Source: the human T2T-CHM13v2.0 reference genome, Homo sapiens. Taken from it: a stretch of 64,000 nt of DNA. Both the position numbers and the translations under genes were made by a program. The notes beneath the pieces were generated by a model, which was not told the origin of the DNA, made no database searches, and was given only the letters and a program-made list of their open reading frames with translations. The DNA lies in assembly GCF_009914755.1 (NCBI RefSeq), contig NC_060939.1; one strand, given 5' to 3'. Of this stretch, positions 27,501 through 35,350 are shown piece after piece (the first letter of the stretch is position 1; the number at the start of each line of letters is the position of its first letter).

Positions 27501-30252
27501 GGTCTCGATCTCCTGACTTCGTGATCCACCCGCCTGGGCCTCCCAAATTGCTGGGATTACAGGCGTGAGCCTCTGCACCCAGCCTGCCTAGTGTGTTTCT
27601 TTGGAACTTATCAAAATGTCTCTGGAGGCCGGGCACGATGGCTTCATGCCTGTAATCCCAGCACTTTGGGAGGCCAAGGCAGGCGGATAACTTGAGGTCA
27701 GGAGTTTGAGACCAGCCTGGCCAGCATGGTGAAACCCTGTCTCTACTAGAAATACAAAAATTAGCCGGGCGTGGTGGCACACATCTGTAATCCCAGCTAC
27801 TAGGGAGGCTGTGGCATAAGAATCGCTTGAACCCAGGAGGCAGAGGTTGCAGTGAGCCGAGATTGCGCCACTGTACTCCAGCCTGGGTGACAGAGCGAGA
27901 ATCCATCTTAAAAAAAAAAAAAGGCTCTGGAACATTTCATTTCCTGTTTTGTTACTGACCTGTGACTCTGTAAAAGTCTACTTTCGCAATTTGGATTAAT
28001 AATTTTATGAATGCAAATTGGAGATGCTGTTCAAAAAAAAAAAAATAGAAAAGTCTTACAAAGGAAAGACAATCACAGTGATAGCAGACATCTAGTTAGC
28101 TACAGTAGACACCTGGAGTCCATTCAAACCTAGAGAAAACTCAGCCTTGAATTTGCTATCAGCTACACCATTCAAGAGCACGGGGGAAATGAAGACATTT
28201 TCAGACATGCAAAGACTCAACAGTTTGCAATGTACAAAACTTTAGTGGAAGAAAGTAGGTGTACTTAAGCAAAAAGAGAATTTGTCTAGGGGCATAAACT
28301 AATGAGAGGGAGGGTACACCTAAATACTGGCTATAAATGTAATACTAGTTTATAGTTTAAAAAGAGGCAGGAACTAAAATTCTAGAAAGCAATATTGTGA
28401 AGAGTTATTCAAGGCTGGGCACAGTGGCTCACGCCTGTAATCCCAGCACTTTGGGAGGCTGAGGTGGGCAGATCACCTGAGGTCAGGAGTTCGAGACCAG
28501 TGTGGCCAACTTAGTGGAACGCCATCTCTACTAAAAAATAAAAAATAAAAAAATCCAAAAACAGGTACTAAGAGGACAGACCTTGCATCAAATGGTGCTA
28601 GGAAAACTGGACATCCACAAGCAAAACCATACATCATATATTTTGTATATGGTGTATATACAAAAAAATTACACCATATACAAAAATTAACCCAAAATGT
28701 TCTTGCCACAAAAACAACAAAAAATTGGGTAACTACGTGAAATGATGGATGTGTTAATTTGCTTCACTATAGTAACCTTTTTACTACCTGTATGTAGCCT
28801 CATAACATCATGTATACCTTATACCAAATTAAATTGATTTAAAAAGAAATTTAACCCAAAATGGATCAAAAACTTTACTTGTAAGAGCTAAAACGATAAC
28901 TTTGGGAGGCCAAGGCGGGTGGATCACCTGAAGTCAGGAGTTAAAGACCAGCCTGGGCAGCAAGGATAAATCCCGTCACTACTAAAAATACAACAATTAG
29001 CCATGCGTGGTGGCGCACGCCTGTTATCCCAGCTACTCGGGAGACTGAGGCAGGAGAATAGCTTGAACCCGGGAAGCGGAGGTTATGGTGAGCAGAGATG
29101 GCACCATTGCACTCCAGCCTGGGCAACAAGAGTGAAACTCCGTCTCAAAAAAAAAAGCTAAAACGAAAGCTCCTAGAAGAAAACAGGAAAAGCTTCATGG
29201 CATTAGATTTGGCAACGATTTCTTAGATATGACACTAAAAACACAGGCAACAAAATATATAAAGTGGACTACAACAAAGTCATCTTTTCTTAAAAAAATC
29301 TCGTTATCTTACTCCCGCAAAACTATTTAAAAAAATTAAGTTCAAAGTTCTCCAAAATGTACCATACCCTGGGGATTACTCTGAACTTTGTTCATTTGTT
29401 TTCTTTTAATTCGGCTTTTTTGGTTGCCTTTCACCTACTTTTTCGCAGAGCCCTCCGCTGGGGCCTTCACTTGGGCAAACAACTATCGTAGTCGAACAGC
29501 TTTGACCTAACAATTTCCTCGTACCCAAGATGATCGCTTTTCCAGACAACTTAATAAACTTTGGCTTTAATGGATGACTGGATGCAGAATAAAATACATA
29601 AAAATAAACCTCAGCTGCTCAGCAACGACTGAAAAACCACCACCGGGCAATCCCTCCCCATGGCCACCGAGCAAAGTTCCACCGCCTCCCCTACGCCGAC
29701 CGCCGGGCTCCCGGGGTCGGACAGCCCCGGGCCACTTCCGGGCCTTCCCGGAAGTCCCTGTCACTTAACAACCGAAGTAACCCGCAATGCGGAAGGGCGA
29801 GGGGATTGCGAGTCACCGAGTTTCCCGCGCGGCTTGAGGTACTGGGGAACCGGAATCCCCCACCGGCCCAATCATGTTGCTGCTGGGGTCTCTCCGGTGC
29901 CCAGCAGTGGTTGTCAGTAAGCGGGCGGCACTCCCTTCCGATACGTCTTTTCTTTTTTCATTTTTGAGACGGAGTCTCGCTGTGTCACCCAAGCTGGAGT
30001 GCAGTGGCGCGATCTCGGCTCAGTACAAACTCCGCCTCCCGGGTTCAAGCGAGTCTCCTGCCTCAGCCTCCTGAGTAGCTGGGATTACAGGCGCGAGCCA
30101 CTGCGCCCGGCTAATTTTTTTTTGTATTTTTAGTAGAGACGGGGCCTCGCCATGCTGGCCAGGCTGGTCTTGAACTCCTGACCTCAAGTGATCCGCCCGC
30201 CTCGGTCTCCCAGAGTGCTGGGATTACAGGCGAGAGACACCGCGCCTGGCCC
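24565..30252. mobile_element. Dense intergenic Alu cluster (~11 elements, both orientations) with interspersed old L1 fragments
   Basis: Alus at about 24565-24860+, 25591-25882+, 25888-26210+, 26212-26545+, 26596-26885+, 26978-27280-, 27282-27585-, 27626-27922+, 28412-28560+, 28900-29157+, 29950-30252-. Confidence 0.85.
29630..29870 (+). promoter_or_regulatory. UNC45A: Small CpG-rich promoter and non-coding first exon, probably the distal UNC45A/Shisa-like promoter (donor GAG|GTACTG after 29838)
   Basis: CpG-dense patch amid Alus; inverted ETS sites ACTTCCGG (29734-29741) and CCGGAAGT (29748-29755); downstream GT donor. Confidence 0.65.
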
Positions 30253-30523
30253 CCTTCCAACTTTCTTAACGGGAAAGGCTGCTACCATTTCTTGAGCACC
30301 TATGTGTCAGGCTCCATCAGGCACGTCACAGTCTAACCTGATAATTACACAACCCATGTCACTGACAAGGAAGCCAGGTTCGGAGGGGTTGAGGCCCGCA
30401 ACCTGAGGGAGGTGACTCCGGGACACACAATTAGTCCTGCTTTGCTGAAGGAAAGATATGCAGCCCACCAGTCGGAGGCTGGAGAAGGAGCAGCAGCAGC
30501 TTAAACCTTAACCCAGAGTTATT

Positions 30524-30529
30524 TTTATT
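30524..30529 (-). terminator. HDDC3: AATAAA polyadenylation signal of HDDC3
   Basis: TTTATT on the plus strand, about 330 nt past the HDDC3 stop. Confidence 0.7.
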
Positions 30530-33623: not shown

Positions 33624-34704
33624 ATGGGCATCCAGAGAAGGTCAGGCCCCTTGCTGACAGGCCTATCTGTGGGGCTACTGCTGCTCTTCAGCTGGGTGAC
33701 CCTTGTCCAGCCAACCTCTCTCTCAGGTACAGCACTTACCCCTGTGGCCCACCTGCCTCTGGTGCTATGGGCTATTCCTGGGAACTGGAACTGATGGGGA
33801 TGGGTGGAAGGGCATCTTTTCTTCTGGTAGGGGCTGATCTCTTTTACTCTCCAGTAGGGGTGGAGTGAGCTGTGGAAAGGCCCCTCCTGCTTGTCTCTAG
33901 CACCCCCACCTCTCTCTTCAGCTCTGGTCCACCACCCTCACTTGTGCCAGACCACCCGGGATGTCCATGGCCGTCACTACCCTGGTTTCTTTTGCCCTCG
34001 TCTGTCTGATTCTCCAGAGGAAGCCTACTGCTGCCACCTGCAGGCTGCAGGGGGCTCCTGCTGCACCCGGGCTGAATTTGAGGCCCTGTACCAAGTCAAT
34101 CTGTCCGCTCTTCCGCCCCCGCCCATCCTCAGGTGAGATCTCCAACCCCAGAGCCACTGGAACATCGACAGGGTGTTCCAGTATCTGGGGCTCTGTTCCT
34201 AAATTATGGGGTGGTAGGCTTGTAACTTACAGACTAGTGAAGGGACAGACCGCAACAGAAAATCATGTAGATCATGATTACAATTACAAAGGAGAAGTTC
34301 AGGGGGCTGTGCAAGCTGGTAATGGGGAGCCATCCTGAATCTGCCCATGGGTGGCTCTAGGATGAGCTCCTAAATTCGTATGCAAATGTGTGTATGTAAG
34401 ACGACACTTATTTGGGGAGGGAGTCCTGAGCTTTCTCCGGACTCCCAGGGATTCTGTACCCCCCACAGAGCGCAGCAGCGAGAGCGCGGTCGGGGCCGGG
34501 ATCCAGATACTTTTTCTCTCCCGCAGGGGCCCAGGCCCGCTCCTAGTGCTGGGCCTCTACAACCTACTGGTTGTGACCCTGATGACCGTAGACCTCGTGC
34601 ACTTCTGCTGCGGTCGGGGCCGGAGTCTGGGCTGGAGCCACCGCAGGCCTCCCTCTGGGTCCTCCGCCGCGAGCTCCCTGCAGGTCTCTGCGGGGACAGC
34701 TTAG
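33624..34704 (+). CDS. Shisa-like (SHISAL1/KIAA1644-related) type I membrane protein, 3 exons, 163 aa, upstream of UNC45A
   Basis: Exons 33624-33726 (phase 1), 33922-34132 (phase 2), 34527-34704, all GT-AG and in frame. Signal peptide, C..C..CC..CC domain containing GFFCPRLSD, NLS sequon, TM segment LLVLGLYNLLVVTLMTVDLVHF, then CC. Confidence 0.75.
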
Positions 34705-35350
34705 GTGCGCCCGGAGCTTGCCTGCACCTGCGATCCAGAGCCAAGCGCCCCGCCCCTGCCCGGGCGCGCTCCCTCCTTAGCCCTGCCCCTCTCTGACCCC
34801 ACCTCCGACGCAAGAGTGGGGCGGGGCAGCTGCCGGTGGCGTCCCGAACCCAGACTCGCCCCGCCCCAGAGACTGCGCCTGCGCGGGCACGAGACAACCT
34901 CTCCGCGATGACTGTGAGTGGTCCAGGGACCCCCGAGCCCCGGCCGGCCACCCCCGGGGTGCGTACCCAACCCCCGCGCCATCACCCCTTCGCACCCGCC
35001 CTGACCATCCCTGGCCTCCTTCTCCCCATCCATGAGGCTCGCCCCGATCCCTCCTCTCCTCTCCCCTTAGCTCCCGGGCTCTGCCCCGAACCCCCTCCGA
35101 CGTTTCCGCCCCCTTTCTCTCTACAGGCCAGCTCAGTGGAGCAGCTGCGGAAGGAGGGCAATGAGCTGTTCAAATGTGGAGACTACGGGGGCGCCCTGGC
35201 GGCCTACACTCAGGCCCTGGGTCTGGACGCGACGCCCCAGGACCAGGCCGTTCTGCACCGGAACCGGGCCGCCTGCCACCTCAAGCTGGTGAGGGAGCCT
35301 GGCGCTCTTCCCCTCGCCCGCCCGGGCCCCGGTTCGCCCATCTAAGCTGA
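34440..35350 (+). promoter_or_regulatory. UNC45A: CpG island: proximal UNC45A promoter
   Basis: CpG-rich, GC boxes (GGGGCGGGG near 34818) and an NRF1-like TGCGCCTGCGC near 34874, upstream of the ATG at 34908. Confidence 0.75.

What the first reader, a model, noticed from the sequence alone, without database searches (positions are those of the whole stretch)
29787..34958. Possible bicistronic mRNA and three-donor switch at the UNC45A 5' end
Seen: there is no AATAAA between the Shisa-like stop (34704) and the UNC45A ATG (34908). Three phase-0 donors can feed exon 2: after 34683 (fusion), after 34913 (ATG ACT|GTGAGT, 929 aa) and after 34958 (944 aa). A transcript 29.8k exon > 33560-33726 > 33922-34132 > 34527-34913 > exon 2 would carry two short uORFs (29787-29837, 16 aa; 33579-33614, 11 aa), the 163-aa ORF, and then UNC45A 203 nt later. 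Inference: the long transcript may mainly make the Shisa-like protein, be NMD-sensitive, or need reinitiation for UNC45A, so promoter and donor choice would set which product is made.
Basis: inference. Interest (0 to 1): 0.7.

Follow-up and report, generated by a model that had tools for sequence, protein, structure and literature searches.

The report
Hidden human SHISAL3 gene before UNC45A
Exons labelled as the non-coding start of UNC45A hold an intact reading frame for a small Shisa-family membrane protein with relatives from fish to mammals, likely the unlisted human counterpart of rat Shisal3, whose RNA likely runs on into UNC45A while UNC45A itself is likely made from its own promoter.

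Summary
All coordinates check out, but the real finding is the 163-aa ORF (33624-34704). It is an ancient gene: orthologues run from sturgeon and gar through amphibians and birds to placental mammals. It is a paralogue of the chr22 SHISAL1-type gene, with both introns at identical position and phase. Its own stop sits at the same place in 20 of 26 mammalian proteins. Rat has a gene named Shisal3 at the syntenic position, listed with no human ortholog. Human RefSeq treats these exons as UNC45A 5' UTR, and GENCODE's PhyloCSF study called them coding 'UNC45A 5' exons'.

The ORF ends 163 nt before UNC45A's CpG-rich start site and has no poly(A) signal until 36532. Its RNA therefore must cross into UNC45A, so the long transcript is structurally bicistronic. 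Six upstream AUGs and 19 downstream junctions make it a poor UNC45A template and a likely NMD target (inferred).

The 'three-donor switch' is not supported. The 929 and 944 aa isoforms are already known. The fusion donor at 34683 is chance-level by sequence, and the fused gene models look projected. The missing AATAAA and the two uORFs are also what chance gives. Verdict: a real, unlisted human gene of a known family.

The parts
29763..29838 (+). Distal first exon of the long transcript, holding uORF1 (29787-29837, 16 aa); lies antisense inside the last exon of HDDC3
   Evidence: RefSeq table from the hub; CpG o/e 0.82-0.92 at 29400-29999; its donor GAG|GTACTG scores lower than all 50 annotated donors
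33560..33726 (+). First coding exon of the SHISAL3-like ORF: uORF2 33579-33614 (11 aa), ATG 33624, hydrophobic leader likely a signal peptide
   Evidence: Kyte-Doolittle 19-residue peak 2.16 at residue 10
33922..34132 (+). Exon for the six-cysteine Shisa-type luminal domain (C43, C59, C71, C72, C81, C82; sequon N94-L-S)
   Evidence: PhyloCSF region chr15:90934338-90934544 equals 33924-34130
34527..34704 (+). Coding part of the third exon: transmembrane helix with invariant Y116 and D127, Arg-rich tail, own stop TAG at 34702-34704
   Evidence: PhyloCSF region equals 34528-34626
34681..34689 (+). Candidate fusion donor CAG|GTCTCT (exon end 34683) giving a 1084-aa membrane-anchored UNC45A; weak, use not shown here
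34705..34907 (+). 203-nt gap without AUG or poly(A) signal; CpG-rich, GC boxes at 34750, 34819 and 34861, NRF1-like motif at 34874; holds the HDDC3 long-isoform start (34729, minus) and the UNC45A start (34868, plus), 138 bp apart
   Evidence: RefSeq table from the hub; the NRF1 motif label is recalled
34908..34913 (+). UNC45A ATG and donor ACT|GTGAGT (929-aa isoform)
   Evidence: isoform length in PMC11128996
34908..34958 (+). UNC45A first coding exon with donor GGG|GTGCGT (944-aa isoform)
   Evidence: RefSeq NM_018671.5 in the hub table
35127..35288 (+). UNC45A exon 2, common acceptor for all three donors
36532..36537 (+). First AATAAA downstream of the ORF stop, in the UNC45A intron after 36043; candidate independent 3' end, use not shown
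53655..53660 (+). Terminal UNC45A AATAAA, the 3' end of the annotated long transcript
   Evidence: RefSeq end 53676 in the hub table

Best explanation
The three exons at 33560-34704 carry an intact 163-aa reading frame that is likely a separate ancient gene, the human ortholog of rat Shisal3, whose RNA likely runs through into UNC45A and would make mainly this small membrane protein, while UNC45A protein likely comes from its own promoter at 34868. Shown: the ORF is conserved in vertebrates, is paralogous to the chr22 SHISAL1-type gene, keeps its own stop, ends 163 nt before the UNC45A start site, and has no poly(A) signal before 36532. Inferred for the RNA: transcription from 29763 crosses the UNC45A/HDDC3 promoter, borrows the UNC45A exon-1 donors, and ends at 53676 or at the intronic AATAAA at 36532. 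Scanning ribosomes would meet 33624 after two short uORFs. Few would reach the seventh AUG at 34908, so the fully spliced long form would be damped by NMD and kept low. Inferred for the protein: a type I glycoprotein (signal peptide, disulfide-bonded Shisa domain, one helix with an intramembrane Tyr and Asp, short basic tail) that likely binds another membrane protein in the secretory pathway and alters its maturation or surface delivery, as Shisa proteins do. It lacks PY motifs, so direct NEDD4-type recruitment is unlikely.
For: Conservation: the exon-2 peptide finds 48 proteins among 89 candidates at 63-96% identity. 34 are short (123-258 aa), and 20 of those are named shisa-like-1/-1a or KIAA1644 homolog by a source. 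A profile of non-mammalian fragments finds 105 among 818 candidates, from sturgeon, reedfish, gar, coelacanth, amphibians, turtles, birds and a skink. Tree: these 25 rows with the human ORF form one side of a 100/99 branch against the SHISAL1-type rows, in roughly species order. The human genome holds one other close locus, on chr22 at 44.77-44.78 Mb. Both introns match in phase and position: split codon plus 7 codons before the first Cys, and Tyr at codon 11 of the next exon. Six Cys, Y and D are invariant in 103 of 103 sequences I chose. The stop lies 6 residues after L[Q/R/L] in 20 of 26 mammalian standalone proteins. Four intron-free proteins ending at or near that stop come only from source 'lgn' (P0004, P0016, P0019, P0044), which I infer are transcript assemblies. 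Rat Shisal3 lies at chr1:143,705,991-143,707,951 (minus), 49.8 kb from Vps33b (plus) and converging on it; the human ORF is 63 kb from VPS33B, also converging. It is listed as 'No ortholog found' (PMC12418956 supplement rows). PhyloCSF regions match exons 2 and 3 and overlap the 5' UTR of ENST00000394275 (PMC6886504 supplement rows). Adjacency to UNC45A outside mammals: 6 of 105 hits are models that run into UNC45 domains (five birds, one skink).
Against: No human RNA, ribosome or peptide data were examined, so translation, NMD and the 3' end are inferred. GENCODE curators read the same exons as coding exons of UNC45A, not as a gene, and 9 of 14 fused mammalian models share the LQ|ASS junction. 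The conserved C-terminus overlaps promoter DNA, so part of its conservation may not be protein-level, and the strong PhyloCSF region stops at 34626. The gene is degraded in capuchin and sifaka models, and its tail is altered in three cetaceans and a gopher, so it may be dispensable. Rat hippocampal expression is near zero (baseMean 1.05). The human exon-2 peptide scores 13.7 bits on Pfam Shisa_N, below the cutoff of 22. I did not see the rat Shisal3 sequence or the rat Unc45a position; orthology rests on name, size, strand and the Vps33b distance. The 29838 donor is very weak. The mammalian branch is long (1.23). The tree has no outgroup root.
Confidence: 0.6

Rival explanations
1. The exons are an alternative N-terminus of UNC45A: the 34683 donor joins the Shisa domain and membrane helix in frame to the TPR domain, giving a 1084-aa membrane-anchored myosin chaperone as the main functional product.
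For: In frame and topologically sensible, with the chaperone on the cytosolic side. It escapes NMD. GENCODE classed the regions as novel coding 'UNC45A 5' exons'. 9 of 14 fused mammalian models use this junction. A Val codon (GT) follows the site in 18 of the 20 proteins with the conserved stop. From recall, not from a call, the human entry A0A1W2PNX8 is this 1084-aa form; one search shows only that it is a UNC45A accession.
Against: All 14 fused mammalian forms come from uniref or ncbi gene models, none from lgn or ena. Five of 14 use other junctions or read through. Capuchin and sifaka fusions are kept although the Shisa domain has lost cysteines, which points to projection. The six sauropsid fusions join at different places. 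Cat (Ile) and tarsier (Gly) lack the Val codon. The donor score is chance-level. The stop six codons further on is conserved (20 of 26), which a purely intronic stretch would not need.
Confidence: 0.15
2. A functional bicistronic mRNA with a regulated switch: uORFs, reinitiation and donor choice couple the output of the Shisa-like protein and UNC45A.
For: The long exon chain is annotated (hub table; UTR5 overlap). The two genes are adjacent in mammals, birds and a skink. Human bicistronic pairs such as MIURF-MIEF1, PYURF-PIGY, ASDURF-ASNSD1 and STREMI-SLC35A4 exist (PMC13303939 passages). uORF1 ends 65 nt and uORF2 9 nt before the ORF AUG.
Against: UNC45A has its own CpG-rich start at 34868 that serves both known donors. 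Six AUGs precede its AUG on the long form. Reinitiation after 163 codons is inefficient (established knowledge). The uORF count is at chance. UNC45A appeared only in RNA-seq expression sheets in the 11 supplement files of PMC13303939 searched, one cut when stored; that study used canonical transcripts only.
Confidence: 0.1
3. The gene is real in other vertebrates but fading in humans: the frame is intact, the RNA is rare and degraded, and little or no protein is made.
For: No poly(A) signal of its own. Strong NMD features. Losses or damage in other primates and altered tails in cetaceans. No human gene entry in the hub table. No paper on the protein in my 10 searches.
Against: The human frame keeps all six cysteines, the sequon, Y116, D127 and the conserved stop. 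Its branch is short (0.036). Exon 2 ranked 390 among the PhyloCSF candidates.
Confidence: 0.15

Closest known systems
Rat Shisal3 (shisa like 3; gene ID 41042766 in the PMC12418956 supplement)
   Same: Name, small size (1.96 kb), and position converging on Vps33b at about 50 kb versus 63 kb in human. Other vertebrates' orthologues are named 'protein shisa-like-1/-1a' by NCBI.
   Different: Annotated as its own gene in rat and listed with no human ortholog; in human the exons are filed under UNC45A. The rat sequence was not seen here.
SHISAL1 / KIAA1644 (chr22 locus; the name is recalled and agrees with Atlas cluster names)
   Same: Six-Cys domain with FxCPRL, sequon, Tyr and Asp in the helix, no PY motif, two introns at identical position and phase.
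   Different: Separate branch (100/99), about 40% identity in the domain, short Arg-rich tail, faster evolution, 3' end overlapping a neighbour's promoter.
Shisa proper (SHISA2-9; mouse Shisa3 N-terminal domain, PDB 5m0w)
   Same: Profile match E=1.2e-6; top Foldseek hit, rmsd 1.9 A over 45 columns, E=0.075.
   Different: Shisa proper has eight cysteines, Shisa-like six (PMC8621455 passage); no PY motif here.
GENCODE 'UNC45A 5' exons' (Mudge et al. 2019, PMC6886504)
   Same: The same two coding regions, recognised as novel coding sequence.
   Different: Filed as exons of UNC45A; 'shisa' does not occur in the main text or in the supplement files searched (file 1 not searched, file 8 cut when stored).
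Human bicistronic transcripts (MIURF-MIEF1, PYURF-PIGY, ASDURF-ASNSD1, STREMI-SLC35A4)
   Same: A conserved protein encoded in the annotated 5' UTR of another gene.
   Different: The STREMI study's set was selected as predominantly bicistronic. Here the downstream gene has its own promoter between the two frames, and the upstream frame is a multi-exon secretory-pathway protein of 163 aa.

Membership tests
Shisa-like proteins | Six cysteines in a C*C*CC*CC pattern in the luminal domain (PMC5578492 and PMC8621455 passages) | tested here: met
   C43, C59, C71, C72, C81, C82 in the human ORF; invariant in 103 of 103 chosen sequences
Shisa-like proteins | N-terminal signal sequence | tested here: inconclusive
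   Hydrophobic peak 2.16 at residues 10-28 and a similar leader in orthologues; no signal-peptide predictor was available
Shisa-like proteins | Single transmembrane helix after the Cys domain | tested here: met
   Hydropathy 2.07 at residue 111; helix 108-140 at pLDDT 92-95 in its core in the model of homologue P0004
Shisa-like proteins | Pfam Shisa_N (PF13908) above the curated cutoff | tested here: inconclusive
   Human exon 2: 13.7 bits, cutoff 22; 12 of 21 mammalian members match at E up to 1, best 0.01; several non-mammalian orthologues pass, e.g. P0063 at 33.2 bits
Shisa-like proteins | Shisa-type fold | tested here: inconclusive
   Top hit 5m0w by sequence profile (E=1.2e-6) and by Foldseek (E=0.075, above the 0.001 threshold); the model is of a primate-like homologue, mean pLDDT 77.5
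Shisa-like proteins (PY-bearing branches such as WBP1, VOPP1, CYYR1) | Cytosolic PY motif ([LP]PxY) | tested here: not met
   None in the human ORF, 0 of 21 mammalian and 0 of 75 non-mammalian tails. Also 0 of 17 SHISAL1-type proteins and none in the chr22 exon, so it does not define the SHISAL1 branch; not filed with the PY-bearing branches
SHISAL1 orthologues | Groups with the chr22 gene in a tree | tested here: not met
   Separate side of a 100/99 branch; it is a paralogue
Shisal3 orthologues | Syntenic position | tested here: met
   Converging on VPS33B at 63 kb (hub table) versus 49.8 kb in rat; rat Unc45a position not seen
Shisal3 orthologues | Sequence match to the rat Shisal3 record | not testable with these tools
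   A rat fused model, P0017, carries the domain at 88% identity, but the Shisal3 record itself was not available
Functional bicistronic mRNAs | Both frames conserved and on one annotated transcript | tested here: met
   hub table
Functional bicistronic mRNAs | Both proteins translated from that transcript, which is the predominant form | not testable with these tools
   Needs long reads and Ribo-seq; the separate start at 34868 argues against predominance

The most novel reading that the evidence does not exclude
A conserved mammalian splice choice at 34683 converts an unlisted Shisa-family gene and its neighbour into a membrane-anchored UNC45A, so one locus makes a small membrane adaptor, soluble UNC45A, and a surface- or ER-tethered myosin chaperone in a tissue-specific way.
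Probability: 0.15. Interest if true: 0.85.

Novelty: new member of a known kind. Interest (0 to 1): 0.58.

Why it matters
A protein-coding gene conserved since early bony fishes appears to have no gene entry in the human RefSeq table for this window, because its exons are filed under UNC45A. Variants in 33624-34704 would be read as UNC45A UTR when they may be missense or nonsense changes in a different protein. UNC45A is a disease gene (O2HE syndrome), and the paper describing it drew its gene structure on the long transcript ENST00000394275. Gene-level RNA counts for UNC45A may mix two genes. The locus is also a clean test of how a gene without its own poly(A) signal survives next to a neighbour's promoter.

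Tried and rejected
Missing AATAAA as evidence: rejected, expected in a 74% GC gap. Two uORFs as a designed control element: not supported, chance level. Donor strength as support for the fusion: chance level; the simple matrix also scores the real 34913 donor low (2.8), so it cannot exclude use either. Fused database proteins as independent proof: rejected, junctions vary and degraded copies are fused too. First structure model from 21 sequences was poor (pLDDT 56) and was not searched. First tree with four distant unnamed outgroups placed them on long unstable branches; the second tree left them out and is unrooted. Rows dropped before counts: degraded, frameshifted or intron-retaining proteins (e.g. 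P0009, P0030, P0041, P0046, P0047, P0049, P0050, P0051) were not in the 103-row alignment or the 26-row stop count. Paper searches: 10 run; none listed a study of this protein or of its link to UNC45A. Passages of PMC3826498 and PMC13394718 had no bearing on the ORF, and PMC7653359 section 13 and PMC10531659 passages mention no such paralogue. Pei and Grishin 2012 and Guo et al. 2011 were not held, so they are cited only second-hand. No complex prediction was run. Earlier scan findings were not available.
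Full report
1. Observation. Donors after 34683, 34913 and 34958 give 1084, 929 and 944 aa. Two highlighted features are chance: AATAAA or ATTAAA occurs in 36 of 20000 shuffles of the gap, and 64% of leader shuffles have two or more AUGs. The informative fact is that the first AATAAA after the stop is at 36532, inside a UNC45A intron. Any RNA for this ORF must therefore cross the UNC45A start site at 34868, 163 nt after the stop.

2. The ORF is a gene. The exon-2 peptide finds 48 proteins among 89 candidates; every named one is from a placental mammal. 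34 are short, and 20 of these are named shisa-like-1/-1a or KIAA1644 homolog; 14 are long models fused to UNC45A. A profile search of the 50%-identity library gave 107 hits, and a profile of five non-mammalian fragments gave 105 among 818 candidates, with names: sturgeon, reedfish, gar, coelacanth, caecilian, salamanders, frogs, turtles, many birds and a skink. No teleost, marsupial or monotreme name appeared, but that search depends on shared words. In a tree of 37 rows these sequences and the human ORF lie on one side of a 100/99 branch, in roughly species order; seven SHISAL1-type rows and five other unnamed rows lie on the other (unrooted). Searching the human genome with a SHISAL1-type protein returns two exons on chr22 and this window. 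Both introns agree in phase and position between the two loci, so they are paralogues from a gene duplication. The name SHISAL1 for the chr22 gene is recalled and agrees with Atlas cluster names.

3. The protein. It has a hydrophobic leader, six cysteines in the C*C*CC*CC pattern, a sequon at N94, one membrane helix and a short Arg-rich tail without PY motif. In 103 sequences that I chose as complete, the six Cys, FxCPRL and two residues in the helix (human Y116, D127) are invariant. The family profile matches the mouse Shisa3 N-terminal domain 5m0w at E=1.2e-6. A model of a primate-like homologue (pLDDT 77.5) has 5m0w as its top Foldseek hit, at E=0.075 only. The human peptide itself is below the Pfam cutoff, which may be why automated screens miss it (inference). 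[quoted passage not shown] By analogy I infer a membrane adaptor acting through its Cys domain and polar helix residues; the partner is not known.

4. What is already on record. Mudge et al. 2019 list PhyloCSF regions that map exactly to 33924-34130 and 34528-34626, overlapping the 5' UTR of ENST00000394275, filed as novel coding 'UNC45A 5' exons' (supplement rows; file 1 not searched, file 8 cut when stored). A rat study lists Shisal3 at chr1:143,705,991-143,707,951 (minus), with 'No ortholog found' and baseMean 1.05, and Vps33b at 143,633,167-143,656,228 (plus) (PMC12418956 passages and supplement rows; 11 of 23 files not searched). That is the same converging layout as human (63 kb versus 49.8 kb), so this ORF is very likely human SHISAL3; I did not see the rat sequence. 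The 944 and 929 aa isoforms are described in a review (PMC11128996 passage). Ten paper searches listed no study of the protein or of its link to UNC45A; subscription journals are largely missing from that library.

5. Standalone or fusion. For standalone: the stop lies 6 residues after L[Q/R/L] in 20 of 26 mammalian proteins, across a linker that is otherwise highly variable. Four intron-free proteins ending at or near that stop come only from source 'lgn', which I take to be transcript assemblies (inference). For fusion: 9 of 14 mammalian fused models use the LQ|ASS junction, and GENCODE filed the exons under UNC45A. Against treating those models as evidence: none comes from lgn or ena; five use other joins; capuchin and sifaka models stay fused with damaged Cys domains; and six sauropsid models join at different places. 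Those sauropsid models do show that the two genes abut in birds and a skink. The 34683 donor scores like many decoys, though the real 34913 donor also scores low on my small matrix. A caveat in the other direction: the last codons overlap promoter DNA, so their conservation may be partly non-coding.

6. How it most likely works. UNC45A has its own CpG-rich start at 34868, 138 bp from the opposite-strand start of the long HDDC3 isoform, and RefSeq lists both known donors from it. The upstream gene's RNA starts further up, has no poly(A) signal, and borrows the UNC45A donors. Its stop is 209 nt before the next junction, with 19 junctions downstream, so unless ribosomes reinitiate it is an NMD substrate (established rule, not tested). 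Reinitiation after 163 codons is inefficient, and leaky scanning past six AUGs is improbable. So the long RNA likely yields a small amount of the Shisa-like protein, an intronic end near 36550 could give a stable form, and UNC45A comes from the short promoter. I put this at 0.6, fusion as main product at 0.15, a fading human gene at 0.15, and a regulated bicistronic switch at 0.1. That the ORF is a genuine vertebrate gene of this family I put near 0.9.

7. Verdict. The coding nature of the exons is on record (GENCODE) and the gene has a name in rat, so this is not categorically new. What appears unrecorded, in the hub's RefSeq table and in my searches, is its recognition in human as a separate SHISAL1 paralogue with a conserved stop, overlapping the UNC45A promoter. 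New member of a known kind; interest 0.58.

Noticed in passing
window 43084-43158: Partial duplicate of the UNC45A exon at 39889-40056 inside a later intron, 63 of 75 bases identical, just after an A-run. It matches the fourth PhyloCSF region of the Mudge cluster if the offset holds. Probably a pseudo-exon.
   Followed up: partly
window 34203-34213: The 11-nt RefSeq exon has no AG acceptor, so it is probably a first exon. Its ATG at 34206 is in frame with exon 34527 and would give a 61-aa helix-plus-tail peptide.
   Followed up: no
window 29551-34729: The long transcript is antisense to all of HDDC3, and the long HDDC3 isoform's first exon (34568-34729) overlaps the coding exon for the membrane helix and tail on the other strand (hub table).
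   Followed up: no
window 33510-33625 versus protein P0025: An out-of-frame translation from an unnamed mammal matches the human sequence across the 33560 acceptor and the non-coding leader, hinting that the upstream splice site or a proximal promoter is conserved. One species only.
   Followed up: partly
proteins P0046, P0049, P0051, P0020, P0034, P0035 (orthologues of window 33624-34704): Capuchin and sifaka copies have lost cysteines or frame, and three cetacean tails carry repeat expansions with altered ends: possible independent losses, or model errors.
   Followed up: partly
proteins P0078, P0090, P0106, P0070, P0088: Two small unnamed groups branch next to SHISAL1; they may be further paralogues or distant-lineage orthologues. 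Taxa unknown.
   Followed up: no
G000:C5:65510754-65510894: A weak third human match (E=4.8e-4) to the salamander orthologue; from recall this is near SHISAL2B/FAM159B.
   Followed up: no
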